From a virus: DNA of 33,174 nt. The position numbers were made by a program, and so were the translations under genes. Below, one piece after another: positions 1 to 33,174 of the stretch. The first letter of the stretch is position 1. Each line of letters starts with the position of its first letter. The notes below the pieces were generated by a model that was given only the letters and a program-made list of their open reading frames with translations, made no database searches and was not told the origin of the DNA. Location: the IMG/VR virus record IMGVR_UViG_3300044450_000017; one strand, 5' to 3'.

Positions 1-127
1 GTACTGGTGTAGGCGCTACCGGTACTGGAGTTGGAGCCGTTGGCACAGGAGTAGGCGCAACCGGTACAGGCGTTGGTGCAACAGGCACCGGTACAGGCGT
101 TGGTGCAACAGGCACCGGTACAGGCGT
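1..127. repeat. Terminal direct repeat identical to 33048..33174. This is an assembly overlap indicating a circular or circularly permuted genome with a unique length of 33047 bp.
   Basis: Base-by-base comparison of the two window ends gives an exact 127/127 match. The interrupted ORF stays in frame across the join. Confidence 0.95.
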
Positions 128-442
128 AGGTGCAACCGGTACTGGAACTGGAGTAGGTGCTACTGGTACTGGTACTGGTGTAGGCGCTACCGGAACCGGC
201 GTTGGCGCTACTGGTACAGGTGTAGGCGCGGTTGGCACAGGTGTAGGTGCTACAGGTACAGGTACAGGTACAGGAACTGGCACAGGATTTGGCGTTGGCG
301 TAGGTGCAGGTACCGGAGTTGGCGCCGTTGGTACTGGAGCAGGTACAGGTGTTGGCGTAGGTGTTGTAGGTACTGGGCTAGGTATAGGCGCCGGTACTGG
401 TGTTGGCGTTGGTGCTACCGGCACTGGTGTAGGTGCGACTGG
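1..442 (-). repeat. GC-rich degenerate tandem repeats encoding Pro/Thr/Val/Ala linker 1 of the tail-tip protein. The linker is about 149 aa when joined to 33043..33047.
   Basis: Minus-strand codons read ...[20 protein letters not shown]...[16 protein letters not shown].... The 27-nt unit cgttggtgcaacaggcaccggtacagg is exactly tandem at 71..97 and 98..124. The region is much more GC-rich than its surroundings. Confidence 0.9.
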
Positions 443-2800
443 GCAACCAACTCCTACTGAACCTGTGTAGGTTATAGAATTTAAGTCCGCGCCAGTAGTC
501 CAATCATTTAAATCGCCTACATTGTAAGCATAAAAACTTTGACCATTCCAGCTTATAGAACTAGCCGTGCTAGGGTTACCGCTTGTATTTGGTAATACGC
601 TTGTTGTTCTAATCCACATATCCAGGTTCTCATAAAAAGTATCTGGGCAACCTCTAACTATGTAATAATTGTATGTATCTACAACGGTTGGGTATGAAAT
701 TTGACTACTATTAAATAATGTATCAACGTCCGTTGATTGGTCGCCAATGTGAGAATTAAAACTATATATGTTTTGTTTTACATTATATTCTAATGTATCA
801 ATAACTAATAGTTTGCTTTCTGTAAAAGTATTAAAGTCAATATACAACCTATCGAAAAGTTGTATTGGAAATTGAGAATCTACTTTCTTTAAACTACCCT
901 CATAACGTTGCATTTTAAGCCTGTTATCGTTTATGCGTTGTTGAGCAGTTAAATCTTCAATAAATCTAGGAAATGTATCGCCGTTTCTTAAAAATTTAGT
1001 TATATAACCTTTAAACTGTGAATCAATAGGCGCCATATAGCCCTTTTGAAAACGGTTAAATGTGCTACCCTGGTAAATATCTTTATATTCTAATTTATTA
1101 GTTAGCTTTTTACTTGTTGTTTGTGAGTTGCTAGTTTGTAAATTTTCTGTATTAAAAGACAATGTTTCGATTTCAGAATCTGGCGCATCTAAATAAAATA
1201 ATGTTTCCCAATTCATTTGCACCCCACTAATAAACATAGCAACGTGCGTGCCTCCAGCTTGTATTATAGGCTTACTAAATTCAAATTTAATATCATACGG
1301 TAAATAATTTTCGCTTACACTGGGGCAGTTGTAAGTAATTTGTTTGTTATAAGTAAGCCATTCGCCGCGTCCGCTATAAATATAAAAGTTTACAAAAGAC
1401 GAATTTACCCAAAGGTTGTCTGTTTGATTATAATAAAACGTTTGGTAATTTCCTGTGTATGCTCCATTTAAGTATTCCCTAAATCTTACGGTAATTCTAA
1501 ACGGTATAGCATACTTTGCTATTGTGCCTTGAAAACCACCGTTTTGCATTTGCGTTTCAAAACTAAAATTAAATTTAGTCGTATCTTCTTCGCTGCTTTG
1601 CGCTTTAATTAAAAAAGTGTTAGAAAGTACAAACTCAAAACTTGTAACCGTACCTGTTATTTTTGCAGACTTATAGCCTTTTATTGCATTGGTTTCTAAA
1701 CTTACAAAATTACTATCGTATTCCCAATCTGTAAAATCGTCCTCAAAATTACCGTTAGGAATATAATTAAGTTGCTTATCTAAACTGACTGTATTTAAAA
1801 CTTCAATGACACCACCGCTAGTTTCTTTTAAAAGGTCATCGCCAATAGGCAAAGCATCGTTTGGTATGAATACAATTTGACCTAGTACATTGTTGCCCGC
1901 TAAAATACCTAAATAATTATAGCGTTTGTATAATATAGACGCAGGGTCTGTAATGTCGGCATTATTAATTATAACCCAACTAGCTTGCGCTTGAAATATA
2001 CGGCAGTTAAAACCTGTTAAAATTGAAGTTAAAACCTGCGACGTATTAAATTTATAAGTGTTTTGGTCGCTATAACTGCTACTATTTATAATAACGTCCT
2101 CAAATACATTAGTTATTGCAGCAGCGTTTTCTTCTTTTATGTTTGTTTTTACATAAATATCTGCTTCAAAACCTGTTTCATTTAAAGACTTGTGTAAACA
2201 TTCCCAAAGCGTAACCTCGTTATTAGGCGCAATAGGGAACTCAATTCCCTTTAGTAACCCTAAACCATCTACTGCCTTAAAAGATACGTTAAAAGGCGCC
2301 GCAGATAACCTCTGCTGGTATGTGTCCTGTATTAAAAAACCTTGCCAAAATATTTTATAATTTTCTATAATGTTACCGCCTTCCCAAACGCCACTATTAG
2401 CGTCCCAAACAATATTTGTATTTTGCCATTCGTCGGCAGGGTTGTAACCTTGGCCTAATAAATTCCAAGTTTGACTTGCAGCCTCCCAATTTTCGCTTTG
2501 GTCTTCCCAATATGGAACTCGTGTTTCTGAATAATACAACTTAACTAAAAACTCGCGTTCGTCAAAATCGTAAAATTCGTCGTAGGTAACAGAATCAGTT
2601 TGTATTAAATTAATCTCGCAGTTGGAAGCTATAATAGGGTCGTAAAAATCATTGTCTTGTTCCCATTTTATAGAAATAGGCGAACCAGTACCTATTAAAG
2701 GGTAAATAAAACCGTTATAGTTTTTTTGTAAAATATCCAAACGCCTTTTATTCCCTTCCGTATCGGAAAAATCCAAACGGTATTTCGTTCCGTATGCCAT
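1..2800 (-). CDS. Large tail-tip / receptor-binding protein, N-terminal 933 codons. The ORF runs off the window start and continues in frame at 33047..32344, giving 1167 aa in total.
   Basis: The ATG at 2798-2800 lies 3 nt after the tape-measure stop. I checked every codon of this frame from 2800 down to 1 and found no tta/cta/tca. After removing the 127-nt overlap the frame equals that of ORF 32344..33162. It is absent from the ORF track because it has no in-window stop. The N-terminus [30 protein letters not shown] is typical of tail proteins encoded just after a tape measure. Confidence 0.85.
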
Positions 2801-2803
2801 AAC

Positions 2804-5086
2804 TTATTTTATTCTTGACCTTGTTTTGTCTGCTCTTTGCAATGCAACTACTAAATCTTGCCCTCTTACTACAAATTCTCCGCTTACGTTTACATTACCG
2901 CTTGCGCCTTGGTCGCCTATTATGTTTTTAAGTTTATTAAGTGGCGCTATAACCTCTGGATTGCTTTTTGCACCAGGATATTCGCCTACTAAACCCATTG
3001 TAGGGCCGCTAACAATACCACCATTAGCAAAGGCTGCAAAACCACCGCTTTGTACTTTTGTTGCTAAACCAGTTAATACAGTACCTAATACTATTGCCGC
3101 AACTCCAGCGGCAGCGCCTATTCCTGGTATTGCAAATGTTTTTGCTAAAGCAGAAGCTGCAACCGCAGCCTCTCCCATTTGTTTTAACAACCCACCTAAA
3201 GCGCCTAATATTGCTCCGGATAAAGCACCCATTAAATTTTTACCGTCCACTATTGCGGTAGCTAATGCCTGGCCCATTGTTGTCGCTATTGAGCCAAAAT
3301 TAACTTCAAAAGCCATTTTTAAATTATCTGTGCTTTTTGCTATCTCGTTAAATGTTTCAGCTACTGGTTGCGCTATTGGTAATTGCGCTATGCCTAACAT
3401 TTCTGTTTTTAATTTAGCTACTTTAGGCGTTAAATCTTGTATTGCTTTTGTCGTTTCTTTTATAGCAGGTTTTTGATTTGGCGCTAATAAAGACAAGCCT
3501 TGTTGTTGAAAGTTTGATGCGCCGCCTGGTAATTGTGGGCCAGTAGGTGCTACTCCAGGCATTGCACTTGCACCACGTTTAGCATTTTTTAAAGACTGTG
3601 CGCTGGCTTCTGCTACGCCTAAAGATACTGCAACACCGGCAGCACCTCCGCTCATAAAACCACTTAATGCAGCTTTAGCTTGTTCAAATGTAGATAATGA
3701 AGGCGCAATTTTATCAGCAGCAGTAACAAATGCAGCCCCTAAACCTACTATTGCAGTGCCAAACAAAACAACTGGGTTAGCTAGCATTGTTATATTTAAA
3801 CTCTTTACGCCTGTAATAAGTTTACCAATAACGGCGCTACTGGCAACCGTAGAAATAGCGCCAGATAAAACTCCAAATGCCGTTATCATATTTCCAATAA
3901 CAACAAGCGCTGGCCCTAGTACAGTAATTATACCGCCTAAAATTATTATAGCTTTTTTAGCCTCTGGGCTTAAAGATTGAAAGCCTTTAAATAAATTCAT
4001 TAAGGCATTGGCAGCAGATTTTATATAAGGCAAAAATGTACTTAATAATTCGCCACCTAATTCAGTAAAAGCAACCCTTAATTCGTTTAAACTTTTTTGC
4101 AATTTAAAAGACGCGCTTTCAGACGTAGCTTCGAACGCTTTGGCAGTTGCGCCTTGCGTTTTTGTCATATTATCAAAAATCTGCCTAGTAGTTTCTACGT
4201 TAGCACCTAGTAAATCCATTACCCCAGATAAAGCCCTAACATTACCAAACACTCTTTGCGCAGCAGTATCGTTGCCTTCAAAATTCGATTTTAAGACTTC
4301 TAGTGTAGCCAGCAAACCATCTTCTTTTAAAGACCTTCTTAACTCGGCGCTAGATAAACCCATTTCAGATAATGCAGCTTCGGCGTCTGTTGTTGGCTTT
4401 AACAAACTAGCAAATATACCTCTAACTTGCGTTGCGGCTTCGGCAGCGTTTGTACCAGTTCTTGATAGCGCAGCAAATGCAGCACCAACCTCGCCAAAAG
4501 TAACTCCCATATTAGAAGCAATAGGTAAAACCCTTCCCATAGATGCAGCTAATTCGTCAGCCTCTAGCTTACCTTCACGAACCGCAGAAACCATTACGTC
4601 TGTTGCGTCAGTTGCACTTAATACTTGCGAGCCATAAGCGTTCATTGCAGACGTTGCTAAATCAGCTACTATTTTAGTTTCTCCTAAACCTACCGCAGAA
4701 GCCTTTAAAGAAGCGTTTAAAACGTCCATAGCTTCGCTGCCACGTAAACCAGCAGATGTTATAAAGAATAAAGCCTCTGCCGCGTCGTTAGCACTAACGC
4801 CTGTATCTGCTGCCATTTTTTTAGCAGCTTCCCCCATTTTATCAACTTCTGCGCTTGCAACACCTACTAATGATTTTATTTTAGTCATAGACTTGTCAAA
4901 GTCTACGCCCATTTTTATAGCAGCGCCCCCAGCTAAAGCAAGTGGCAATGATAATTTTGAAAGGCTTGTGCCTACGCCAGTTACTTTTTTACCAAAAGAT
5001 TTTAGTTTGCTGCTCGCGGTATTTAATGAAGCGCTTAACCTAGAAGCGTCCCCAGTTAGTAATACCTTTAATTCATTAGCTGCCAT
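2804..5086 (-). CDS. Tail tape measure protein (760 aa)
   Basis: It is the longest Ala/Gly-rich ORF and lies directly downstream of the G/GT chaperone pair. It has a TP901-type core motif (ADLATSAMNAYGS), central hydrophobic segments and a C-terminal GGIVSGPTMGLVGEYPG...EVIAPL motif. Confidence 0.9.
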   Translation of the reverse strand: MAANELKVLLTGDASRLSASLNTASSKLKSFGKKVTGVGTSLSKLSLPLALAGGAAIKMGVDFDKSMTKIKSLVGVASAEVDKMGEAAKKMAADTGVSANDAAEALFFITSAGLRGSEAMDVLNASLKASAVGLGETKIVADLATSAMNAYGSQVLSATDATDVMVSAVREGKLEADELAASMGRVLPIASNMGVTFGEVGAAFAALSRTGTNAAEAATQVRGIFASLLKPTTDAEAALSEMGLSSAELRRSLKEDGLLATLEVLKSNFEGNDTAAQRVFGNVRALSGVMDLLGANVETTRQIFDNMTKTQGATAKAFEATSESASFKLQKSLNELRVAFTELGGELLSTFLPYIKSAANALMNLFKGFQSLSPEAKKAIIILGGIITVLGPALVVIGNMITAFGVLSGAISTVASSAVIGKLITGVKSLNITMLANPVVLFGTAIVGLGAAFVTAADKIAPSLSTFEQAKAALSGFMSGGAAGVAVSLGVAEASAQSLKNAKRGASAMPGVAPTGPQLPGGASNFQQQGLSLLAPNQKPAIKETTKAIQDLTPKVAKLKTEMLGIAQLPIAQPVAETFNEIAKSTDNLKMAFEVNFGSIATTMGQALATAIVDGKNLMGALSGAILGALGGLLKQMGEAAVAASALAKTFAIPGIGAAAGVAAIVLGTVLTGLATKVQSGGFAAFANGGIVSGPTMGLVGEYPGAKSNPEVIAPLNKLKNIIGDQGASGNVNVSGEFVVRGQDLVVALQRADKTRSRIK

Positions 5087-6448: not shown

Positions 6449-9154
6449 TTAGAACTGGTTAGCAAATGCCATATAGATATAGGTACTTGAAGTATTATTA
6501 AATCCTGTTGAAGTACTGTTAAAAGAAAAACCATTCGGCGTAAAATTTACAATAGCAGGGTCGTTTACAAATTCTTCACTTGATAAATTTGCATAAACTC
6601 TTTTGTCAGAACCTCTTTTATTATCAAGCATTTGCCAATCTCCTGTACCTCCTGTTACTCTTTTAATCATTACAAACGCAGGTTCAAAACCACAGTTTTG
6701 CTCATTAGGTATTGCTGCCCCACTGTAACTACCAAACTTACTAAATCCTGCAACCTCTGCGAAACAGTAGGCTATTGTTTCTGTATTTGCGTCAAAAGAA
6801 GTGTTAGACGTACCTCCAATTAAGCTACTTGTCATACCACTTCCCCACCACTTAAAGCTACCATTTTCAGCATTAGTATTAAATTGAAGCATATATCTAC
6901 CATTTCCACCGCTTGATAAATCTTTGTGATAAATAAACCAGTTAAAAATGTCTGTGCTTTTTGTAATTACCATAGCTGGCTCTGTGTTTAATCCGTGTCC
7001 AGCAGTAAAGTCTCCACTTGATGGAACTGTAAACTTAACAATACTAAACCCAGCAGCAGGATTTGCACTAACAACAGAAGGAATACTACCGTTACTGTTT
7101 ATAGCAGGTATTTCTGCTCCTTTCCAGTTCCAAGCAACTATGCCATTTCCATTACCGTTTGCTGAAGTTGTAGTACCTAAACTAAATCCATCTGCATCAA
7201 AAGATGTTATATGATTTGTTGTAGTATCTTCTGCATCTGTAAGACTTGAATAAAGTAGTTTAGTATTGCCTCTTACTGAATCAATTAAATTGTGGTGCTG
7301 AACGGCATCTCTATTTTTAATCCAAACAAAATCTGGTTGGAATCCAACCCCTGTAATTGAACGAGCAGTTGCATTCCCTGTATAAGTAACAGTATTAAAA
7401 CTATCTTCTAAAGTAGGTTCTACTGCGGTAGGGTCAGCAGCAAATGCCATATAGATGAAAGTGTCTCCGCTACTATTTAAACCTCCAGATGTGTTTGTTA
7501 ATTCAAATCCATTTTCTAAAAATGTTACTGGTCCATAAGCACGCTCTGCATCTGAAAGGTTAGGAGCTAAAACTAAATCAGCAACATTATTCGTAGCTCT
7601 TTTGTTGTCAAATATTGACCAATCAGAAACATTACTTGACCTTTTTATAATAACCATTGCAGGCTCAAATCCTGTTACAACAACATTTCCACTTGCTACT
7701 CCTGTACCAACATACGAACCAAAGTTAGAGAAACCTTCTACTGAATGGAAGGCATAACATATATATTCGTTATTTAAAACATTAAGAGTACTTGCTCCGC
7801 CTGTATAAAATATACTTGAATTAGGTAATGGTCTGCCTGAATCTGCTTTTGCATCAGTTTTGTTTAAATAAAGAAAATCTTGAGAGCCGTCAATAATGTC
7901 TGTATAAAAATACCAATCTAAAGGACTTGTTCTATTTTTTATAATAACAATTTCTGGAGGCAAGTTTAATCCGTGTCCAATTTCTCTTTGCGAATCTCCA
8001 CTTGTATAATCTCCCGTATAACTAACAATACTAAACCCTGCCTCTGTATTAGCAGATACTTGAGATGTTATTGTTCCATCTGTGTTTGTTACTGCTGCAC
8101 CTCCTGCTTTAAAGTTCCAAGCTACGTAGTTTTGACCGCTTTCATTTGTTCCGTTAGACACACCAAGAGAAAAACCATCAGAATCAAAAGAAGTTACATT
8201 TGTATTAGTGACTTCAGCAGATGTTTCATTACTTGAAATCATTTTATTTACCCCTCTAACAGAATCTCTTAATTGATTACCACTTATGCCTGTTCTTTCC
8301 TTTATCCAAACTAAGTCGGGTTGGAAATCAACTGAACCTACTTGGTTTAATAAAGGTGTAGATTGTGTGCCTCCATTTCCCTCATAAGTAATCGTACTAA
8401 AATGCTGACTTGGCACAATAGTAGGTGTACAATATTCTTCTGTATATAATGCTTCTACTTCGTATGGTCTTAATGCTCTGTTGAATATTCTTACTTGGTC
8501 TATTGAGCCATCTGAATAAGCAGGAGTATCAATTCTTGAAATACCTATTGTATGATTATCTATAACAGAAGGATAATCAATCCAAGATGTATTTGATGCA
8601 GTTCCAGTATTTTCATAAGTTCCTAATAATTTAGAGCCATTAACATATATTTCTTTATCTGTGTCTGTAACTTGCACTAAGATATGAACCCAATTAGTCG
8701 TTGGAGTTATATCTGCTTTATAAATTGACCTATTAGCTGTAGAACCGTCTGTAACATTTATTCTTATAAAACTTAAATCATTAAACCAACCTAATTGAAA
8801 ATAATGAAGTGCACTTGAATCATCACTTGCTCCATAAGGGAAAATCCTACTTGTTAAAGTGTTTGGTTTTATCCAAGTACTTATTGATTTTATAATATTA
8901 GATTTATTAAAAGGACTACCGCTTGGTAAAGTAATTCTACTACTCCCATCAAAAACCCCTGCTTGACCAAATACACCTGTACCATAAGTAACATTCGTAG
9001 CAGTACCATTATAGTTTCCACTAACATCAGTAGCATCTCCATTTAATTGATATAAAGCTAAACCACCACCATCGGGAAATGGGTTGTATAAATCTACTGT
9101 ATTAGTACAAGCACCGCCTCCTGCATCATTTGATTTGATTAATCTATTATTCAT
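6449..9154 (-). CDS. Large tail fibre / receptor-binding protein (901 aa) with an N-terminal ConA/LamG-like domain and a 2 x 3 array of ~100-aa repeats
   Basis: The N-terminal part has a Laminin_G_3-like pattern (GQAGVFDGSSRITLP...ISTWIKPN...DQVRIFNRAL). The rest contains six modules with the recurring pattern Y.G.G...GF(Q/E)P(D/A).V.IK.R....W...D..R...F...GF.L....Y(I/V)..AF. Confidence 0.7.
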   Translation of the reverse strand: MNNRLIKSNDAGGGACTNTVDLYNPFPDGGGLALYQLNGDATDVSGNYNGTATNVTYGTGVFGQAGVFDGSSRITLPSGSPFNKSNIIKSISTWIKPNTLTSRIFPYGASDDSSALHYFQLGWFNDLSFIRINVTDGSTANRSIYKADITPTTNWVHILVQVTDTDKEIYVNGSKLLGTYENTGTASNTSWIDYPSVIDNHTIGISRIDTPAYSDGSIDQVRIFNRALRPYEVEALYTEEYCTPTIVPSQHFSTITYEGNGGTQSTPLLNQVGSVDFQPDLVWIKERTGISGNQLRDSVRGVNKMISSNETSAEVTNTNVTSFDSDGFSLGVSNGTNESGQNYVAWNFKAGGAAVTNTDGTITSQVSANTEAGFSIVSYTGDYTSGDSQREIGHGLNLPPEIVIIKNRTSPLDWYFYTDIIDGSQDFLYLNKTDAKADSGRPLPNSSIFYTGGASTLNVLNNEYICYAFHSVEGFSNFGSYVGTGVASGNVVVTGFEPAMVIIKRSSNVSDWSIFDNKRATNNVADLVLAPNLSDAERAYGPVTFLENGFELTNTSGGLNSSGDTFIYMAFAADPTAVEPTLEDSFNTVTYTGNATARSITGVGFQPDFVWIKNRDAVQHHNLIDSVRGNTKLLYSSLTDAEDTTTNHITSFDADGFSLGTTTSANGNGNGIVAWNWKGAEIPAINSNGSIPSVVSANPAAGFSIVKFTVPSSGDFTAGHGLNTEPAMVITKSTDIFNWFIYHKDLSSGGNGRYMLQFNTNAENGSFKWWGSGMTSSLIGGTSNTSFDANTETIAYCFAEVAGFSKFGSYSGAAIPNEQNCGFEPAFVMIKRVTGGTGDWQMLDNKRGSDKRVYANLSSEEFVNDPAIVNFTPNGFSFNSTSTGFNNTSSTYIYMAFANQF

Positions 9155-30325: not shown

Positions 30326-31156
30326 TTAAAAATTATATGTTTCTAACCATTCTTTTGCAGCTTTATAAAATTCATTATCTGGAAATTTGCTAACATCTAT
30401 TTGGCCCATATTTCTTTTGTCAAAAATAGGGTCGCAACTGTAATGCGCAATATGGTGCCAGCTTTCTAAATTGTTTACGTTTGGATAATAGCAGTTGTGC
30501 GTATCGACCATTTTAATTTTATTGTTGTGGCACGCAATATTTAAACCGTACATCGCTTGCCACCAACTATGATTGTTTCCGTTTTGTTCTGTTCCTATTT
30601 TAATACTCGTTTCAATTATTTCGTTTATAATCTTTTTAAGCGTTTTAACGCGCGCTATTACATTAAATCCGCCGTTCATATAATTATAATCGTCGTGTTT
30701 TAAATACTTCTTTATAATGCCGCTATTTGCGCTTGTCGGCTTTGTTATATGCAAATGCCAATCATTATAAATAGCGTCTGCAACCACTTCGTCAAATTTA
30801 GGAATATATCCATCGTACTTTTTTAAATGTACTAAATCAGCGTCTATAATTTCAACAACTTCATCGTCTGGCAAATCTTGTATTATTTCTCTAGCGGCGG
30901 TAAATACATTTGTAGGAATATAAATATCTCGCTGCAAATCGTACATATCCAAAATGCTATCTACCATTTTGTAAGGCAGTTTTAAATTCCAATCTACATC
31001 GTCTTGTATAGGCTCCTGCTTATTATTGCGTTTTACTATTGGTATAATCGCTTTGTTCTTAGCGTCGTTGCCATATACTTTCAAATGTTGGTATTGAAAA
31101 AAACTAATTTGTCGCCTAAAATATTCGTTGGCTACTGCGCAAGGTATTGAAATCAT
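30326..31156 (-). CDS. GT-A-like putative glycosyltransferase (276 aa)
   Basis: N-terminal MISIPCAVANEYF resembles the first strand-helix of GT-A folds, and VVEIIDADLVHL provides a DxD motif near residue 105. It has an ATGA overlap with the dioxygenase gene. The family is not identified. Confidence 0.3.
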   Translation of the reverse strand: MISIPCAVANEYFRRQISFFQYQHLKVYGNDAKNKAIIPIVKRNNKQEPIQDDVDWNLKLPYKMVDSILDMYDLQRDIYIPTNVFTAAREIIQDLPDDEVVEIIDADLVHLKKYDGYIPKFDEVVADAIYNDWHLHITKPTSANSGIIKKYLKHDDYNYMNGGFNVIARVKTLKKIINEIIETSIKIGTEQNGNNHSWWQAMYGLNIACHNNKIKMVDTHNCYYPNVNNLESWHHIAHYSCDPIFDKRNMGQIDVSKFPDNEFYKAAKEWLETYNF

Positions 31157-32331
31157 ATCAGCTTATAATGAACGTAAAAATTATTAAAACTTTCTCCTTG
31201 GAACGGTTCGGTTCTGCCGTGTTCGCATATAGCGCTTTCGTATAAAATCATTTCGCCTGGTTCTGCATATACTTTATGCCATTCTCCGTTATGGTCTTGT
31301 ATATCTAGCGGCCAATCTTCGCCAAATTCTTTATGCGAACAACCGCAACGCAAATCTTTATCTACTATTATAATGCTGCTAATATGGTGCGTTTCTACCC
31401 TATCGACGTGCTTTATTAAAGTGGCGCCTTTTTTATAAGACCTTATGCCATATATAAAAGTTGGCTCAATTTTTTGACCGCAAAACTTTTCGTGTATAGG
31501 CTGCAATTGCTTGTGTATTAATGACCTTATGCTAGTCAAATGCTCAAACGAATATATATCGCTGCCGCCGCCTATTATTACGTTTTCTTTACCCTCAAAA
31601 ACTTCTTCTGTTTTTTTGTTTTTTAAAATCTCGTATGCGTCTTTTATTATGGCCCAGGTTTCTGCTGGAACCTTTACGACCTTAAAACCTTTTTCTGTTA
31701 ATTTTGGTATTTGTTCTTTGCTAGTGTACACTTTTGGTTTATTTAATTTTTCAAATAAATTAGCGTCTTCGGCGCCATTCCAATCGTTTTCGCGCCACCA
31801 AGAAGTTATTATATATTTAATTCCTTTTGTTATTGTGGTACCTTCGTGCATTGTTTCTGGCTGCGGTTCGCCGTCAATTGTGTTTTCCCAAACTACCGCC
31901 TTACCTAATTCTGGCTTTATTATTTTTCCCAATTTAGGAAAACTAGTGCCGCCACCATCGAAATCGTCGTTTAAATAAATCATAAACGTAAATGTACGGT
32001 TGCCACTAGACAGGCAATGTTTGTCGTAAGCATCGCCACTAAAATAGTCGTTATGCTCTTTAAAGAATTGCCCTACTTCGTATTTTTGACCTTGTAAATC
32101 TTCTCCCTTTTTAATATCCAAACCTAAATTGTCGGCTATTTTTTGGTGTATAGATTTTACGGTTGGGTCATTAGGCGCCAAATTAGAAGTGCTGGAAGTT
32201 CGTGTTTCTGAAATACCGCTTCTGTCTGTTCCGCCAACTACAACGCTAGAACGTACGTTGTTGGCCTCAATCATTTCGACTAAAGCCTGGCACTCATTTT
32301 TGCTAAGAAATCCATTTATTTCTTTTACCAT
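31153..32331 (-). CDS. Fused double 2OG-Fe(II) dioxygenase (392 aa): an N-terminal prolyl-4-hydroxylase-like domain plus a second HxD...H dioxygenase domain
   Basis: Domain 1 has FLSKNECQALV, RTSSTSNL, EDLQGQKYEVGQFFKEHNDYF (HxD), NRTFTFMIYLNDDFDGGGTSFP, GKAVVWEN, MHEGTTITKGIK (His, with Lys at +10) and ITSWWRE. Domain 2 has YGIRSYKKGATLIKHVDRVETHH (HxD), EPGEMILYES and CEHGR. Confidence 0.8.
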   Translation of the reverse strand: MVKEINGFLSKNECQALVEMIEANNVRSSVVVGGTDRSGISETRTSSTSNLAPNDPTVKSIHQKIADNLGLDIKKGEDLQGQKYEVGQFFKEHNDYFSGDAYDKHCLSSGNRTFTFMIYLNDDFDGGGTSFPKLGKIIKPELGKAVVWENTIDGEPQPETMHEGTTITKGIKYIITSWWRENDWNGAEDANLFEKLNKPKVYTSKEQIPKLTEKGFKVVKVPAETWAIIKDAYEILKNKKTEEVFEGKENVIIGGGSDIYSFEHLTSIRSLIHKQLQPIHEKFCGQKIEPTFIYGIRSYKKGATLIKHVDRVETHHISSIIIVDKDLRCGCSHKEFGEDWPLDIQDHNGEWHKVYAEPGEMILYESAICEHGRTEPFQGESFNNFYVHYKLI

Positions 32332-32343
32332 AACATATTTATT

Positions 32344-33174
32344 TTAGCAAGCGTTTCTTTGCGCTACTACAATACCGCCGTTACTTATTTGAACTTGATA
32401 AGTTGCTGCAAAATCTGACGTTGTACCAACTCCATACCATTTAAAGTCTCCATCAAATGGATTAGTACCGTTAGAATCTACAAACCATCTGCCGTCTAAT
32501 TTAGTCGCTTGTGTTTCAAAATCGCCTTCATAATAAGCAGTAAATGCTAAAAACTCAAAACATTGGTTATCTGTTGTTGAACCGTTTGTTTCACTAGCCG
32601 TTATTCCCCCTTGCGTTACCAAAACTGGCGGTGTAGGTGTAGGTGTAGGCGTAGGTGCAACTGGAACCGGTGTTGGCGCAGTAGGAACTGGCGTAGGCGT
32701 AGGGGTTGGCGCAACTGGTACTGGCGTCGGAGCAACCGGAACAGGTGTCGGCGCTACTGGTACCGGTGTCGGAGCAACTGGTACTGGCGTAGGTACTGGA
32801 CCTTCACATTCACTACAACCGTTATTTAATGGGTAACCTGTTACGTCAATAGAATTTTCGTCCCCTGCATTTGCGTCGTATTGTGCTTTAGTTGCGCCAT
32901 TTTCAGCATAGTAACAAGAACCAAATATACTAATTGAAGTCGCCGCTTCTTTATTAGCACTAACTATATATGTAGACGTTGTTCTTACAACCCTATCAAT
33001 AGACGCTGCGCATCTGTTCATAAAGTAATAGTTGTAAGGGTCTACTGGTACTGGTGTAGGCGCTACCGGTACTGGAGTTGGAGCCGTTGGCACAGGAGTA
33101 GGCGCAACCGGTACAGGCGTTGGTGCAACAGGCACCGGTACAGGCGTTGGTGCAACAGGCACCGGTACAGGCGT
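32344..33174 (-). CDS. C-terminal part of the wrap-around 1167-aa tail-tip protein. The unique part is 32344..33047; 33048..33174 duplicates 1..127.
   Basis: Stop TAA at 32344-32346. The GTG start given by the track is an artefact of the window edge, because the frame is continuous with 1..2800 across the circular join. Confidence 0.85.
   Translation of the reverse strand, partial: TPVPVPVAPTPVPVPVAPTPVPVAPTPVPTAPTPVPVAPTPVPVDPYNYYFMNRCAASIDRVVRTTSTYIVSANKEAATSISIFGSCYYAENGATKAQYDANAGDENSIDVTGYPLNNGCSECEGPVPTPVPVAPTPVPVAPTPVPVAPTPVPVAPTPTPTPVPTAPTPVPVAPTPTPTPTPPVLVTQGGITASETNGSTTDNQCFEFLAFTAYYEGDFETQATKLDGRWFVDSNGTNPFDGDFKWYGVGTTSDFAATYQVQISNGGIVVAQRNAC
32626..32799 (-). repeat. Degenerate tandem repeats encoding Pro/Thr/Val/Ala linker 2 (58 aa)
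   Basis: Translation is [59 protein letters not shown]. The segment is GC-rich within an AT-rich genome. Confidence 0.9.
33048..33174. repeat. Terminal direct repeat, identical to 1..127
   Basis: Exact 127/127 match with the window start. Confidence 0.95.

What the first reader, a model, noticed from the sequence alone, without database searches (positions are those of the whole stretch)
31153..32331. Two different 2OG-Fe(II) dioxygenase domains fused in one 392-aa polypeptide
Seen: residues 1 to about 185 form a P4Hc-like domain with H-N-D, a distal His and a Lys at +10. Residues from about 250 to 392 carry a second, different facial triad (KHVDRVETHH ... EPGEMILYES ... CEHGR), a type I recall from orphan 2OG-Fe(II) oxygenases of marine phages.

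Inference: a tandem fusion suggests two sequential or distinct oxidations. Examples would be Pro hydroxylation plus hydroxylation of a second residue or position, or one catalytic and one substrate-binding pseudo-enzyme domain.

Established: multi-domain collagen-modifying enzymes (LH3, mimivirus L230) combine activities that act on the same substrate.
Basis: partly seen in the sequence, partly recalled or inferred. Interest (0 to 1): 0.7.

Follow-up and report, generated by a model that had tools for sequence, protein, structure and literature searches.

The report
Two-headed prolyl hydroxylase for phage tail
A marine phage gene fuses two different iron/2-oxoglutarate oxygenase domains and always sits between tail proteins with long X-Pro linkers and sugar-transferase genes, which suggests that these phages hydroxylate and then glycosylate prolines in their own tails, much as plants do in cell-wall proteins.

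Summary

- **N half (residues 1-185):** a collagen/plant-type prolyl 4-hydroxylase. It has H93-N-D95, H162 and K172 at +10.
- **C half (residues ~205-392):** no Pfam match, yet it models confidently (pLDDT 96) as a double-stranded beta-helix. Its nearest structures are PHD-type prolyl hydroxylases. H308-x-D310...H371 is invariant in 192-194 homologues.
- **Not a frameshift:** 120 listed full-length homologues have the same architecture. Fusions in reverse order and in multiple copies also exist, as do standalone C-domain genes.

The main result comes from the gene's surroundings.

- The window is a circular 33,047-bp siphovirus genome.
- The gene just upstream encodes a 1167-aa tail protein with 220 residues of strictly alternating (V/T/A)-Pro.
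- The gene just downstream, with an overlapping start, is a relative of hydroxyproline O-arabinosyltransferase.
- In 80 related viral loci, X-Pro linkers lie within 1-2 kb upstream in nearly all. In 77 of 78 a glycosyltransferase follows.

Best reading: a two-headed prolyl hydroxylase prepares tail-protein linkers for O-glycosylation on hydroxyproline. What the second head does chemically remains inferred.

The parts
31153..32331 (-). 392-aa fusion protein carrying two Fe(II)/2OG dioxygenase domains
   Evidence: ORF. 120 listed full-length homologues. AlphaFold2 model of the whole protein has pLDDT 91.5 and pTM 0.54, so the domains are confident but their mutual orientation is not.
31777..32331 (-). 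N domain (residues 1-185): collagen/plant-type prolyl 4-hydroxylase catalytic domain
   Evidence: Pfam PF13640 at E 9.5e-16. PDB phmmer E 1e-23 to B. anthracis P4H. Foldseek E 1e-14, target-normalised TM 0.65-0.78, to P4Hs of B. anthracis, Chlamydomonas, human C-P4H-II and PBCV-1.
32047..32055 (-). N-domain iron ligands H93-N94-D95
   Evidence: Invariant in 121/121 full-length homologues.
31816..31848 (-). N-domain distal His162 and the 2OG-binding Lys172 at +10
   Evidence: Invariant in 121/121, always with a spacing of 10.
31720..31776 (-). Inter-domain linker (residues ~186-204)
   Evidence: Relatives carry insertions of 30-45 residues here (alignment columns 201-275). pLDDT dips to 73 in this stretch.
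31153..31719 (-). C domain (residues ~205-392): Pfam-orphan double-stranded beta-helix, PHD-like in structure
   Evidence: AlphaFold2 pLDDT 96.2, pTM 0.91. Foldseek against PDB finds PHD2, Dictyostelium PHD and P. putida PPHD at E 5e-8 to 1e-7. BFVD best match is the S-SCSM1 protein, TM 0.78. PHROG phrog_2954 at E 1.6e-17. The family has 3885 cluster representatives at E<=1e-3.
31402..31410 (-). C-domain putative iron ligands H308-V-D310, at the end of strand II
   Evidence: HxD followed by THH in 192/198 homologues. Invariant in alignments A1 and A2. The strand position comes from DSSP on the model.
31213..31221 (-). C-domain distal His371 and invariant Arg373, on strand VII
   Evidence: H-x-R present in 194/198 homologues.
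30326..31156 (-). 276-aa glycosyltransferase related to hydroxyproline O-arabinosyltransferases; its start overlaps the fusion gene's stop (ATGA)
   Evidence: Pfam PF23452 HPAT at E 1.3e-5, 25.2 bits against a cut-off of 23.9. 15 of 28 family members match HPAT, best E 5.4e-13, and one of them also has a single weak hit to another family. D105-x-D107 is invariant. The ATGA overlap is shown.
1..2800 (-). N-terminal 933 residues of the 1167-aa tail protein that follows the tape measure gene; the first X-Pro linker begins at nt 451 and runs off position 1
   Evidence: Translation. Tape measure protein at 2804..5086. The 127-nt terminal overlap and the in-frame join are shown.
32344..33047 (-). 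C-terminal 234 residues of the same tail protein (33048-33174 repeat positions 1-127); the second X-Pro linker lies at 32611-32805
   Evidence: The linkers are residues 784-938 (68 Pro) and 1015-1079 (27 Pro), alternating X-Pro with X mostly V, T or A.

Best explanation
**What the protein is.** It is a two-headed Fe(II)/2-oxoglutarate dioxygenase.
- Head 1 (residues 1-185) is a collagen/plant-type prolyl 4-hydroxylase.
- Head 2 (residues ~205-392) belongs to a family found almost only in phage and metagenome sequences, with no Pfam model. It has the fold of PHD-type prolyl hydroxylases and keeps an HxD...H iron site.
- A variable linker joins the heads. The model predicts no fixed packing between them.

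**Where the gene sits.** It is the middle gene of a tightly packed, co-directional trio at the end of the tail module of a circular 33-kb siphovirus, probably of marine Flavobacteriia.
- Upstream is a 1167-aa tail protein. Its small Cys-bracketed modules are strung on about 220 residues of strictly alternating (V/T/A)-Pro.
- Downstream is an HPAT-like glycosyltransferase.

**Proposed mechanism.** In the infected cell, the enzyme uses O2 and 2OG to hydroxylate prolines in the X-Pro linkers of the newly made tail protein. The glycosyltransferase then attaches sugar to the hydroxyprolines. The result would be a stiff, protease-resistant, glycan-coated rod, like a plant arabinogalactan-protein or extensin module.

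I infer that the two heads divide the work, for example between different X-Pro contexts or between ring positions 4 and 3.

**Shown here:** both folds, both metal triads, conservation of the fusion, and the gene neighbourhood.

**Inferred:** the substrate, hydroxyproline as the sugar acceptor, and catalytic activity and specificity of head 2.
For: **Domains.**
- N half.
- C half: fold and PHD-like matches.
- Triads invariant.
- Distant C-family members match PF13640 below threshold, on the C domain itself (P0400 residues 387-472, E 6e-4).

**The fusion recurs.**
- 120 listed full-length homologues.
- N-C, C-N, N-C-N-C, N-N-C and N-C-N architectures.
- 40 of 104 multidomain carriers of the C domain also carry PF13640.

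**Substrate link.**
- In 80 IMG/VR loci (54-95% identity), X-Pro linker segments lie in the first kb upstream in essentially all loci with sequence there. They lie in the second kb in 82%, and in 0-14% of bins beyond 4 kb. 391 of 410 segments are on the same strand.
- The same holds in crAss-like relatives.
- In this genome, the adjacent tail protein is the only protein with such linkers.
- Standalone C-domain genes, with no N-type gene nearby, also sit just downstream of proteins with C-x-x-C-(T/A-P)n linkers (L005, L143, L144), or about 3 kb from a small protein with an (A/T/S-P)n C-terminal stretch (L004, L141, L142).

**Glycosylation link.**
- 77 of 78 loci carry at least one glycosyltransferase-family gene within 3.5 kb downstream. 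The families are HPAT-like (26 loci), PF04488 with a DXD motif (27), O-FucT-like (18) and PF11397 (15, E 3e-35).
- From memory, PF11397 is the family of the GlcNAc-transferase that acts on hydroxyproline of Skp1.
- Carbamoyltransferase, NDP-sugar epimerase and radical-SAM genes also occur in these clusters.
- Cultured cyanophage S-SCSM1 has a split version: 2OG oxygenase, O-fucosyltransferase and a C-family gene in a row, followed by carbamoyl transferase and GDP-fucose synthesis genes.

**Operon structure.** The stop of the fusion gene and the start of the glycosyltransferase gene overlap as ATGA, and 12 nt separate the tail gene from the fusion gene.

**Established knowledge (from memory).** Plant and algal P4Hs hydroxylate Pro that follows Ala, Ser, Thr or Val. 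HPATs use the resulting hydroxyproline as acceptor.
Against: - No biochemical data exist, and no cultured phage carries the fusion.
- The HPAT match of this window's own glycosyltransferase only just passes the Pfam cut-off (25.2 vs 23.9 bits).
- Two of the four glycosyltransferase families (O-FucT-like and PF04488) are not known to be specific for hydroxyproline. They could instead glycosylate the Thr or Ser of the linkers.
- In head 2, the position where P4H/PHD enzymes carry the 2OG-binding Arg or Lys (H+12 here) is Asn in this protein, and only 78% Arg across the family. Cofactor binding must therefore use another residue, or differ. Invariant R373 and R297 are candidates.
- I could not inspect model coordinates, so the metal-site geometry is inferred from strand positions only.
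- One standalone C-domain locus (L145) has no nearby Pro linker.
Confidence: 0.6

Rival explanations
1. Head 2 is a non-catalytic double-stranded beta-helix, as in OGFOD1/Tpa1/Ofd1. It would serve as a scaffold or a substrate- or product-binding module for the catalytic N-terminal P4H.
For: Foldseek aligns the whole model to OGFOD1 (4nhy) and Tpa1 (3kt1) over 480-565 columns, so tandem beta-helix proteins are known. From memory, their second domain is inactive. The canonical basic 2OG-binding position is Asn here and varies across the family.
Against: HxD...H, THH, YGIRSY and H-x-R are invariant or nearly so across about 190 sequences down to roughly 40% identity. Inactive domains usually lose their ligands. 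The C domain also occurs as a standalone 190-200-aa gene next to Pro-linker proteins, with no P4H partner within 6-8 kb.
Confidence: 0.12
2. Head 2 is an active oxygenase, but not a simple second prolyl 4-hydroxylase. It might oxidise hydroxyproline further (for example to 3,4-dihydroxyproline), hydroxylate another residue of the tail protein, or act on the attached sugar or a sugar nucleotide.
For: The two heads share no detectable sequence similarity. Head 2 has an unusual set of invariant residues (R297, R373, T314-H-H, N384, H388) and lacks the +10 basic residue. The neighbourhood is rich in sugar-modifying enzymes. A few family members are fused to a VHL beta-like domain, which from memory binds hydroxyproline.
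Against: All the top PDB structural neighbours are protein prolyl hydroxylases: PHD2, PPHD, Dictyostelium and Trichoplax PHD, and Tpa1. Standalone C genes sit beside (T/A-P)n linkers with no other hydroxylase nearby. This suggests they can start the modification themselves.
Confidence: 0.2
3. The enzyme is an auxiliary metabolic or host-takeover gene that hydroxylates host proteins, such as EF-Tu (as P. putida PPHD and B. anthracis P4H do) or ribosomal proteins. Its position next to the tail gene would then be coincidental.
For: Virome surveys list P4HA as an abundant viral auxiliary metabolic gene whose role 'remains cryptic' (PMC9301287). PDB entries among the fold matches show P4H/PPHD acting on EF-Tu (5v7y, 4iw3). 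PHROGs files both halves under 'moron, auxiliary metabolic gene and host takeover'.
Against: The position between Pro-linker virion genes and glycosyltransferases is kept in 77-80 loci spanning two very different phage architectures, a tape-measure siphovirus and crAss-like phages with muzzle proteins. It lies in the late structural module, not among early genes.
Confidence: 0.07
4. The ORF is an artefact: two adjacent genes joined by a sequencing or assembly frameshift.
For: Standalone C-domain genes and standalone P4H genes both exist.
Against: The same uninterrupted architecture appears in 120 listed protein clusters from independent projects and assemblers, and in all 80 IMG/VR loci examined.
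Confidence: 0.01

Closest known systems
Plant and green-algal P4H (e.g. Chlamydomonas P4H-1, PDB 2jig/3gze) acting with hydroxyproline O-arabinosyltransferases (HPAT) on extensin and arabinogalactan-protein modules
   Same: The N domain matches CrP4H-1 (phmmer E 4e-15; Foldseek TM 0.77). The downstream gene belongs to, or is close to, Pfam HPAT. The putative substrate is a non-contiguous X-Pro repeat with X = Ala, Thr, Val or Ser. From memory, this is the sequence context that plant P4Hs hydroxylate.
   Different: The system is encoded by a bacteriophage and would work in a bacterial cytoplasm, not the ER/Golgi. The hydroxylase carries a second, unrelated dioxygenase head. Related phages replace the HPAT-like gene with other glycosyltransferase families.
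PBCV-1 viral prolyl 4-hydroxylase vCPH (PDB 5c5t)
   Same: It is a virus-encoded P4H of the same catalytic type (phmmer E 1e-13, TM 0.78). From memory, it acts on Pro-rich repeats of viral proteins rather than on collagen (Eriksson 1999, cited in PMC9301287).
   Different: vCPH has a single domain and comes from a eukaryotic giant virus. I know of no adjacent glycosyltransferase for hydroxyproline or second beta-helix domain.
OGFOD1 / Tpa1 / Ofd1 (PDB 4nhy, 3kt1)
   Same: Two double-stranded beta-helix domains in tandem in one polypeptide, with the N-terminal one a prolyl hydroxylase. Foldseek aligns across both domains.
   Different: From memory, the second domain of those proteins lacks the iron ligands. 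Here the second domain keeps an invariant HxD...H. The substrate there is ribosomal protein uS12, not a linker repeat.
Dictyostelium/Toxoplasma Skp1 pathway: PhyA prolyl hydroxylase plus Gnt1 GlcNAc-transferase
   Same: The best PDB structural match of the C domain is the Dictyostelium PHD (6t8m, E 5e-8). In 15 related phage loci the gene cluster includes a PF11397 'GlcNAc' glycosyltransferase (E 3e-35). From memory, this is the Gnt1 family.
   Different: That pathway modifies a single proline on a cytoplasmic eukaryotic protein for oxygen sensing. Here there are about 95 candidate prolines in a structural virion protein. There is no sequence-level relationship to PhyA.
Lysyl hydroxylase LH3/PLOD3 and mimivirus L230
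   Same: They combine a hydroxylation and a glycosylation that act on the same substrate.
   Different: Those enzymes fuse a hydroxylase to a glycosyltransferase and act on collagen Lys. Here two oxygenase domains are fused, the glycosyltransferase is a separate gene, and the substrate has no Gly-X-Y repeat.
Orphan 2OG-Fe(II) oxygenases of cyanophages (e.g. S-SCSM1 SSCSM1_114; PHROG phrog_2954/phrog_3531, labelled 'ferrochelatase')
   Same: The C domain is a member of this family: tblastn 35% identity, my C-domain HMM E 1.4e-49, BFVD TM 0.78 and phrog_2954 E 1.6e-17.
   Different: Those proteins are uncharacterised, and the 'ferrochelatase' label is not supported by any of the structure matches found here. 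In S-SCSM1 the gene set is split rather than fused.

Membership tests
2OG-Fe(II) oxygenase superfamily: N domain | Double-stranded beta-helix fold | tested here: met
   AlphaFold2 pLDDT above 90 over most of the domain. Foldseek E 1e-14 to P4H structures.
2OG-Fe(II) oxygenase superfamily: N domain | HxD/E...H iron triad plus a basic 2OG-binding residue about 10 residues after the distal His | tested here: met
   H93, D95, H162 and K172 (+10), invariant in 121/121.
Collagen/plant-type prolyl 4-hydroxylase (P4Hc; Pfam PF13640): N domain | Significant profile match and sequence homology to characterised P4Hs | tested here: met
   PF13640 at 59 bits against a cut-off of 27. phmmer E 1e-23 to 1e-13 against four characterised P4Hs.
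Collagen/plant-type prolyl 4-hydroxylase: N domain | Converts peptidyl-Pro to 4-hydroxyproline | not testable with these tools
   Needs an enzyme assay or mass spectrometry.
2OG-Fe(II) oxygenase superfamily: C domain | Double-stranded beta-helix fold | tested here: met
   pLDDT 96.2, pTM 0.91. 323 PDB matches at E<=1e-3, and all 50 listed are 2OG oxygenases or putative oxygenases.
2OG-Fe(II) oxygenase superfamily: C domain | HxD/E...H triad at the end of strand II and on strand VII | tested here: met
   H308 and D310 follow strand 304-308, and H371 lies on strand 371-373. Conserved in 192-194 of 198 sequences.
2OG-Fe(II) oxygenase superfamily: C domain | Basic residue on strand VIII that binds the 2OG C5 carboxylate | tested here: inconclusive
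   H+12 is Arg in 151/194, Asn in 30 and Asp in 13; it is Asn383 in this protein. In more distant members it can be Ala, Ser or Thr. Invariant R373 (H+2) and R297 (in YGIRSY) are candidate substitutes, by inference only.
2OG-Fe(II) oxygenase Pfam families: C domain | Profile match above the gathering threshold | tested here: not met
   No Pfam hit for this protein's C half. Only sub-threshold PF13640/PF13661 hits in 4-5 of 38 members, and in distant relatives.
PHD/EGLN-type prolyl hydroxylases: C domain | Sequence homology to PHDs and the Arg at H+9 | tested here: not met
   The resemblance is structural only (TM 0.55-0.64, 15-17% identity). No PDB sequence hit.
OGFOD1/Tpa1-type tandem beta-helix proteins | Catalytic N-terminal domain followed by a C-terminal domain without iron ligands | tested here: not met
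   The tandem architecture is shared, but the C domain keeps its ligands.
Hydroxyproline O-arabinosyltransferase family (Pfam PF23452): downstream gene 30326..31156 | Profile match above the gathering threshold and a DxD motif | tested here: met
   25.2 bits against a cut-off of 23.9. 15 of 28 homologues match, best E 5.4e-13. D105-x-D107 is invariant. The match for this protein is marginal and covers residues 138-248 only.
Hydroxyproline O-arabinosyltransferase family: downstream gene | Transfers a sugar to the hydroxyl group of hydroxyproline | not testable with these tools
   Needs biochemistry.
LH3 / mimivirus L230 type bifunctional collagen-modifying enzymes | Hydroxylase and glycosyltransferase in one polypeptide, with a collagen Gly-X-Y substrate | tested here: not met
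   The glycosyltransferase is a separate gene. The linkers are X-Pro repeats with no Gly-X-Y periodicity.

The most novel reading that the evidence does not exclude
Tailed phages of marine bacteria, both siphoviruses and crAss-like phages, build hydroxyproline-rich, O-glycosylated rods in their tail proteins, comparable to plant arabinogalactan-protein or extensin modules. They would do this with a dedicated cassette: a two-headed prolyl hydroxylase plus interchangeable glycosyltransferases that act on hydroxyproline. I found no report of hydroxyproline-linked glycosylation in a bacterial virus in the held literature. This reading would explain why 'P4HA' is among the most abundant viral 'auxiliary metabolic genes' in seawater. 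The second head would define a new prolyl-hydroxylase family, found almost only in phage and metagenome sequences, whose 2OG-binding arginine has moved to a different position.
Probability: 0.45. Interest if true: 0.85.

Novelty: new variant of a known kind. Interest (0 to 1): 0.72.

Why it matters
- **A cryptic viral gene gets a testable role.** Viral prolyl 4-hydroxylase genes are abundant in marine viromes, and their role has been called cryptic (PMC9301287). This analysis gives a concrete hypothesis: they are virion-maturation enzymes, not metabolic genes, and they act on X-Pro linkers of tail proteins ahead of glycosylation.
- **A plant-like modification in phages.** If true, hydroxyproline O-glycosylation, regarded as typical of plants, algae and a few protists, would extend to bacteriophages and to the bacterial cytoplasm. 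A glycan-coated tail tip could affect host recognition, protease resistance and stickiness of particles in seawater.
- **A large unannotated family.** The C domain defines an oxygenase family with no Pfam model (about 3,900 clusters at 50% identity) that PHROGs currently labels 'ferrochelatase'.
- **A natural experiment.** A fusion of two differently built prolyl-hydroxylase-like heads allows a direct study of division of labour between dioxygenases.

Tried and rejected
- **Near-identical DNA in 50,697 phage records:** none. No cultured phage holds the fused gene or the HPAT-like glycosyltransferase.
- **Sequence searches of the C half against PDB, as single sequence and as profile:** only noise.
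- **NCBIfam:** only a weak 0.033 hit to PiuC-type dioxygenase.
- **Profile-profile comparison of the C and N domains:** not significant. A recent internal duplication is therefore rejected.
- **hhalign of the C profile against a PHD2 sequence typed from memory:** nothing.
- **Charge relocation from R(H+12) to K307:** this looked perfect in 39 sequences. It failed in the larger set, where K-R pairs, E-N pairs and others occur.
- **The search for related loci with the single standalone protein P0141:** no confirmed locus. With a standalone-only alignment it returned almost only fused genes. The standalone context therefore rests on seven loci that represent three distinct gene neighbourhoods.
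- **Pfam and PHROGs on the tail protein and on the second small gene downstream in relatives:** no hits.
- **PDB profile search for the glycosyltransferase:** only noise.
- **Scan of 185,579 prokaryotic species genomes for the C domain:** five MAG/SAG contigs only. A cellular origin could not be traced.
- **Literature searches for phage hydroxyproline glycosylation or HPAT in viruses:** nothing relevant.


Full report
**1. The observation**

The ORF is real, but it lies on the minus strand: 31153..32331, ATG start, 392 aa. The plus-strand translation is full of stops.

- N half: H93-N-D95, H162 and K172 at +10.
- C half: KHVDRVETHH (307-316), EPGEMILYES (357-366) and CEHGR (369-373).

**2. The N half is a prolyl 4-hydroxylase**

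- Pfam recognises only this half: PF13640, E 9.5e-16, residues 80-180.
- phmmer against PDB sequences gives four clear matches:

| Characterised P4H | E-value |
|---|---|
| Bacillus anthracis P4H | 1e-23 |
| Human C-P4H-II alpha catalytic domain | 7e-20 |
| Chlamydomonas P4H-1 | 4e-15 |
| PBCV-1 viral P4H | 1e-13 |

- In all 121 full-length sequences examined, HxD...H...K keeps the exact +10 spacing.

**3. The C half is a second, different dioxygenase domain**

It has no hit in Pfam, NCBIfam or PDB by sequence.

PHROGs places it in phrog_2954 (E 1.6e-17), which is labelled 'ferrochelatase'. It also matches phrog_3531, whose profile has the two halves in the opposite order.

A second homology search found standalone proteins of about 190-200 aa that consist of this domain alone.

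*Structure.*
- AlphaFold2 on the C half, aligned with 37 of these homologues (mostly standalone proteins), gave pLDDT 96.2 and pTM 0.91.
- Foldseek against the PDB returned only 2OG oxygenases or putative oxygenases among the 50 listed matches. The list is led by PHD-type prolyl hydroxylases: Dictyostelium PHD 6t8m, P. putida PPHD 4j25/4iw3 and human PHD2. These score E 5e-8 to 1e-7, probability 1.0 and TM 0.55-0.64.
- In the viral structure library, the best match is an S-SCSM1 cyanophage '2OG-Fe(II) oxygenase superfamily protein' (TM 0.78). Other cyanophage orphan proteins follow, including one named 'Ferrochelatase'.

*Active-site residues.*
- H308-x-D310 ends strand II and H371 lies on strand VII, which are the canonical positions.
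- HxD plus THH is present in 192 of 198 homologues, and H371-x-R373 in 194.
- One defining feature is not cleanly met. The basic 2OG-binding residue on the last strand (H+12 here) is Arg in 151 of 194 sequences, but Asn in this protein and Asp in some close relatives.
- An apparent compensating Lys at position 307 did not hold up in a larger set.
- Invariant R373 and R297 (in YGIRSY) are candidate replacements, but that is inference only.

*Relationship between the halves.* They are not detectably related by profile-profile comparison (E 0.17). Only the Y-x2-G-x4-H-x-D segment aligns. This is a fusion of two old lineages, not a duplication.

**4. The fusion is real and recurrent**

- The full-length search returned 529 proteins. 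The 120 listed are all 381-436 aa with 95-100% coverage and 54-95% identity, from five data sources.
- The length differences fall in the inter-domain linker.
- The full-length model has pLDDT 91.5 but pTM 0.54. The two domains are therefore well defined, but their relative orientation is not.
- An exhaustive profile search with the C domain found 3885 cluster representatives (E<=1e-3) among 1.84 billion.
- Among the top 144, the architectures are as follows:

| Architecture | Count |
|---|---|
| C only (many with uncharacterised N-terminal extensions) | 100 |
| N-C | 36 |
| C-C | 3 |
| N-C-N-C | 2 |
| C-N | 1 |
| N-N-C | 1 |
| N-C-N | 1 |

- 40 of 104 multidomain carriers also have PF13640.
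- Repeated joining in both orders and in multiple copies is a classic sign that two domains work together.
- Foldseek also aligned the whole model to OGFOD1 and Tpa1 across both of their domains. These are the known tandem beta-helix proteins. From memory, their second domain has lost its iron ligands; here the ligands are kept.

**5. The surroundings change the picture**

*The genome.*
- The window's ends share an exact 127-nt overlap. It is therefore a circular assembly of 33,047 bp with 36% G+C.
- Terminase, portal, major head, major tail and tape measure genes are all on the minus strand.
- The primase/helicase is closest to those of phages of Flavobacteriia.

*The upstream gene.*
- The gene after the tape measure spans the junction (2800..1 joined to 33047..32344). 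It reads through in frame to give a 1167-aa protein.
- A relative with a 91%-identical fusion protein has an 1129-aa equivalent in the same place.
- The protein contains two linkers, at residues 784-938 and 1015-1079. Together they hold 95 prolines in strictly alternating X-Pro, with X mostly Val, Thr or Ala. Small modules of the form ...C-x-x-C-(X-P)n-YNYY... bracket the linkers.
- No other protein in the genome has such a segment.
- The fusion gene starts 12 nt after this gene ends.

*The downstream gene.*
- Its start overlaps the fusion gene's stop as ATGA.
- It encodes a 276-aa protein that matches Pfam HPAT, the hydroxyproline O-arabinosyltransferase family, just above threshold.
- Of 28 family members, 15 match HPAT (best E 5.4e-13), and one of them also has a single weak hit to another family. 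A DxD motif is invariant.

**6. The neighbourhood is conserved across very different phages**

Contigs carrying homologues at 54-72% identity include crAss-like phages with muzzle proteins. There too, the genes just upstream carry (T/S/V/A-P)n linkers after C-x-x-C, and glycosyltransferases follow.

I quantified this on 80 IMG/VR loci.
- X-Pro linker segments occur in the first kb upstream in essentially every locus that has sequence there.
- They occur in the second kb upstream in 82% of loci, and in 0-14% of bins beyond 4 kb upstream.
- 391 of 410 segments are on the same strand as the fusion gene.
- Downstream, 77 of 78 loci have at least one glycosyltransferase-family gene within 3.5 kb:

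| Family | Loci |
|---|---|
| PF04488 (DXD motif) | 27 |
| HPAT-like | 26 |
| O-FucT-like | 18 |
| PF11397 (E 3e-35) | 15 |

- From memory, PF11397 is the family of the GlcNAc-transferase that acts on hydroxyproline of Skp1.
- These genes are often accompanied by carbamoyltransferase, NDP-sugar epimerase or radical-SAM genes.
- Two of the four glycosyltransferase families (HPAT-like and, from memory, PF11397) are named for transferring sugar onto hydroxyproline.

*Standalone C-domain genes.* These have no N-type P4H within 6-8 kb.
- In L005, L143 and L144 they sit directly after large proteins with C-x-x-C-(T/A-P)n linkers.
- In L004, L141 and L142 they lie about 3 kb from a small protein with an (A/T/S-P)n C-terminal stretch, beside a DUF2827 gene.
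- One locus (L145) shows no nearby linker.
- This argues that the C domain is itself tied to Pro linkers.

*A cultured relative.* Cyanophage S-SCSM1 has a split version of the set. A 2OG oxygenase, an annotated protein O-fucosyltransferase and a C-family gene (my HMM, E 1.4e-49) lie in a row. Carbamoyl transferase and GDP-fucose synthesis genes follow.

**7. Mechanism**

*Shown here:*
- two dioxygenase folds with intact iron triads in one protein;
- a conserved fusion;
- a conserved three-part cassette of linker protein, fusion enzyme and glycosyltransferase.

*From established knowledge (from memory):*
- P4Hs of this type hydroxylate Pro in polyproline-II-like repeats, and plant enzymes prefer Pro after Ala, Ser, Thr or Val;
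- HPAT and Gnt1-type enzymes use hydroxyproline as acceptor.

*Inferred:*
- The enzyme hydroxylates the X-Pro linkers of the adjacent tail protein.
- The glycosyltransferase then decorates the hydroxyprolines.
- The two heads divide the work by sequence context or by ring position.

I put about 0.6 on this overall. I am more confident in the substrate link (about 0.7) than in head 2 being an active prolyl hydroxylase (about 0.5-0.6).

*Rivals:*
- Head 2 is a non-catalytic module, as in Tpa1 or OGFOD1. The invariant ligands and the standalone genes argue against this.
- Head 2 performs a different oxidation.
- The enzyme targets host proteins. The conserved position in the late structural module argues against this.
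- The ORF is an assembly artefact. This is refuted.

**8. Comparison with known systems, and novelty**

- The N domain is a member of the P4Hc family.
- The C domain works like, and looks like, a PHD-type hydroxylase. It fails sequence-level membership of any curated family.
- The protein is not an LH3 or L230-type enzyme. The glycosyltransferase is a separate gene and the substrate has no collagen repeat.
- Six literature searches found no report of hydroxyproline glycosylation in bacteriophages or of HPAT relatives in viruses.
- One virome survey lists P4HA among the most abundant viral auxiliary metabolic genes and says its use 'remains cryptic' (PMC9301287).
- A scan of 185,579 prokaryotic species genomes found the C domain on only five MAG or SAG contigs. 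That scan needed exact peptide patterns, so it would miss distant members.
- I rate this a new variant of a known kind, with a substantial chance of revealing a modification pathway not previously described in phages.

Noticed in passing
window 1-127 and 33048-33174: The two ends of the window are identical over exactly 127 nt. The contig is therefore a circular assembly of 33,047 bp, probably a complete siphovirus genome. The break falls inside the X-Pro repeat of the tail gene, so the repeat length may be collapsed.
   Followed up: yes
window 1-2800 and 32344-33047 (minus strand); also L007, L008, L010, L016, L017, L143: The Pro linkers are always bracketed by the same pattern, ...C-x-x-C-(X-Pro)n-Y-N-Y-Y.... 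They join small modules of about 75 aa, like beads on a string. The module has no Pfam or PHROG match, and its function is unknown; carbohydrate binding is one possibility.
   Followed up: partly
L147 (Synechococcus phage S-SCSM1, MK867354, 102203-110301): This cultured cyanophage carries a split version of the gene set. A 2OG oxygenase, a 'GDP-fucose protein O-fucosyltransferase' and a C-domain-family oxygenase lie in a row. Carbamoyl transferase, mannose-6-phosphate isomerase, GDP-mannose dehydratase and GDP-fucose synthase follow. It could serve as an experimental system.
   Followed up: partly
PHROG families phrog_2954 and phrog_3531; BFVD entry E3SI68: The C-domain family is labelled 'ferrochelatase' in PHROGs and in one UniProt cyanophage entry. 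All the listed structural matches are 2OG oxygenases or putative oxygenases, so the label looks like a propagated misannotation.
   Followed up: partly
P0399 (587 aa), P0280 and P0281 (933-972 aa), P0297 (844 aa): The C-domain family shows unusual architectures. One has a VHL beta-like domain (21.7 bits against a cut-off of 21) and a weak thioredoxin-like stretch ahead of the C domain. Two are N-C-N-C double fusions. One has two C domains with ankyrin repeats, which suggests eukaryotic or giant-virus members.
   Followed up: no
L008 9167-10075, L009 1974-2882, and four other crAss-like loci: A radical SAM/SPASM gene sits between the fusion gene and the PF11397 GlcNAc-transferase gene in six loci. 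This suggests a further modification of the linker or the glycan.
   Followed up: no
L145 (ENA ERZ28594420 scaffold_3182, 14.3 kb): This contig has six separate PF13640 2OG-oxygenase genes plus a standalone C-domain gene, and no nearby Pro-linker protein. It is the exception to the neighbourhood rule, and is possibly a T4-like cyanophage or pelagiphage.
   Followed up: no
L004, L141 and L142 (gene 5' of the standalone C-domain gene): A DUF2827 protein (PF10933, E 5e-66) is consistently the immediate upstream neighbour of one clade of standalone C-domain genes. An AAA_33 kinase-like gene and a small protein with an (A/T/S-P)n C-terminal stretch lie nearby. DUF2827 may be an uncharacterised glycosyltransferase.
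   Followed up: no
window 6449-9154 (minus strand): This 901-aa virion protein has very strong PHROG matches (phrog_19943 at E 5e-191; phrog_24898 'tail fiber' at E 9e-147), each in two stretches. It lies upstream of the major tail gene, has no Pro linkers, and was not examined further.
   Followed up: no
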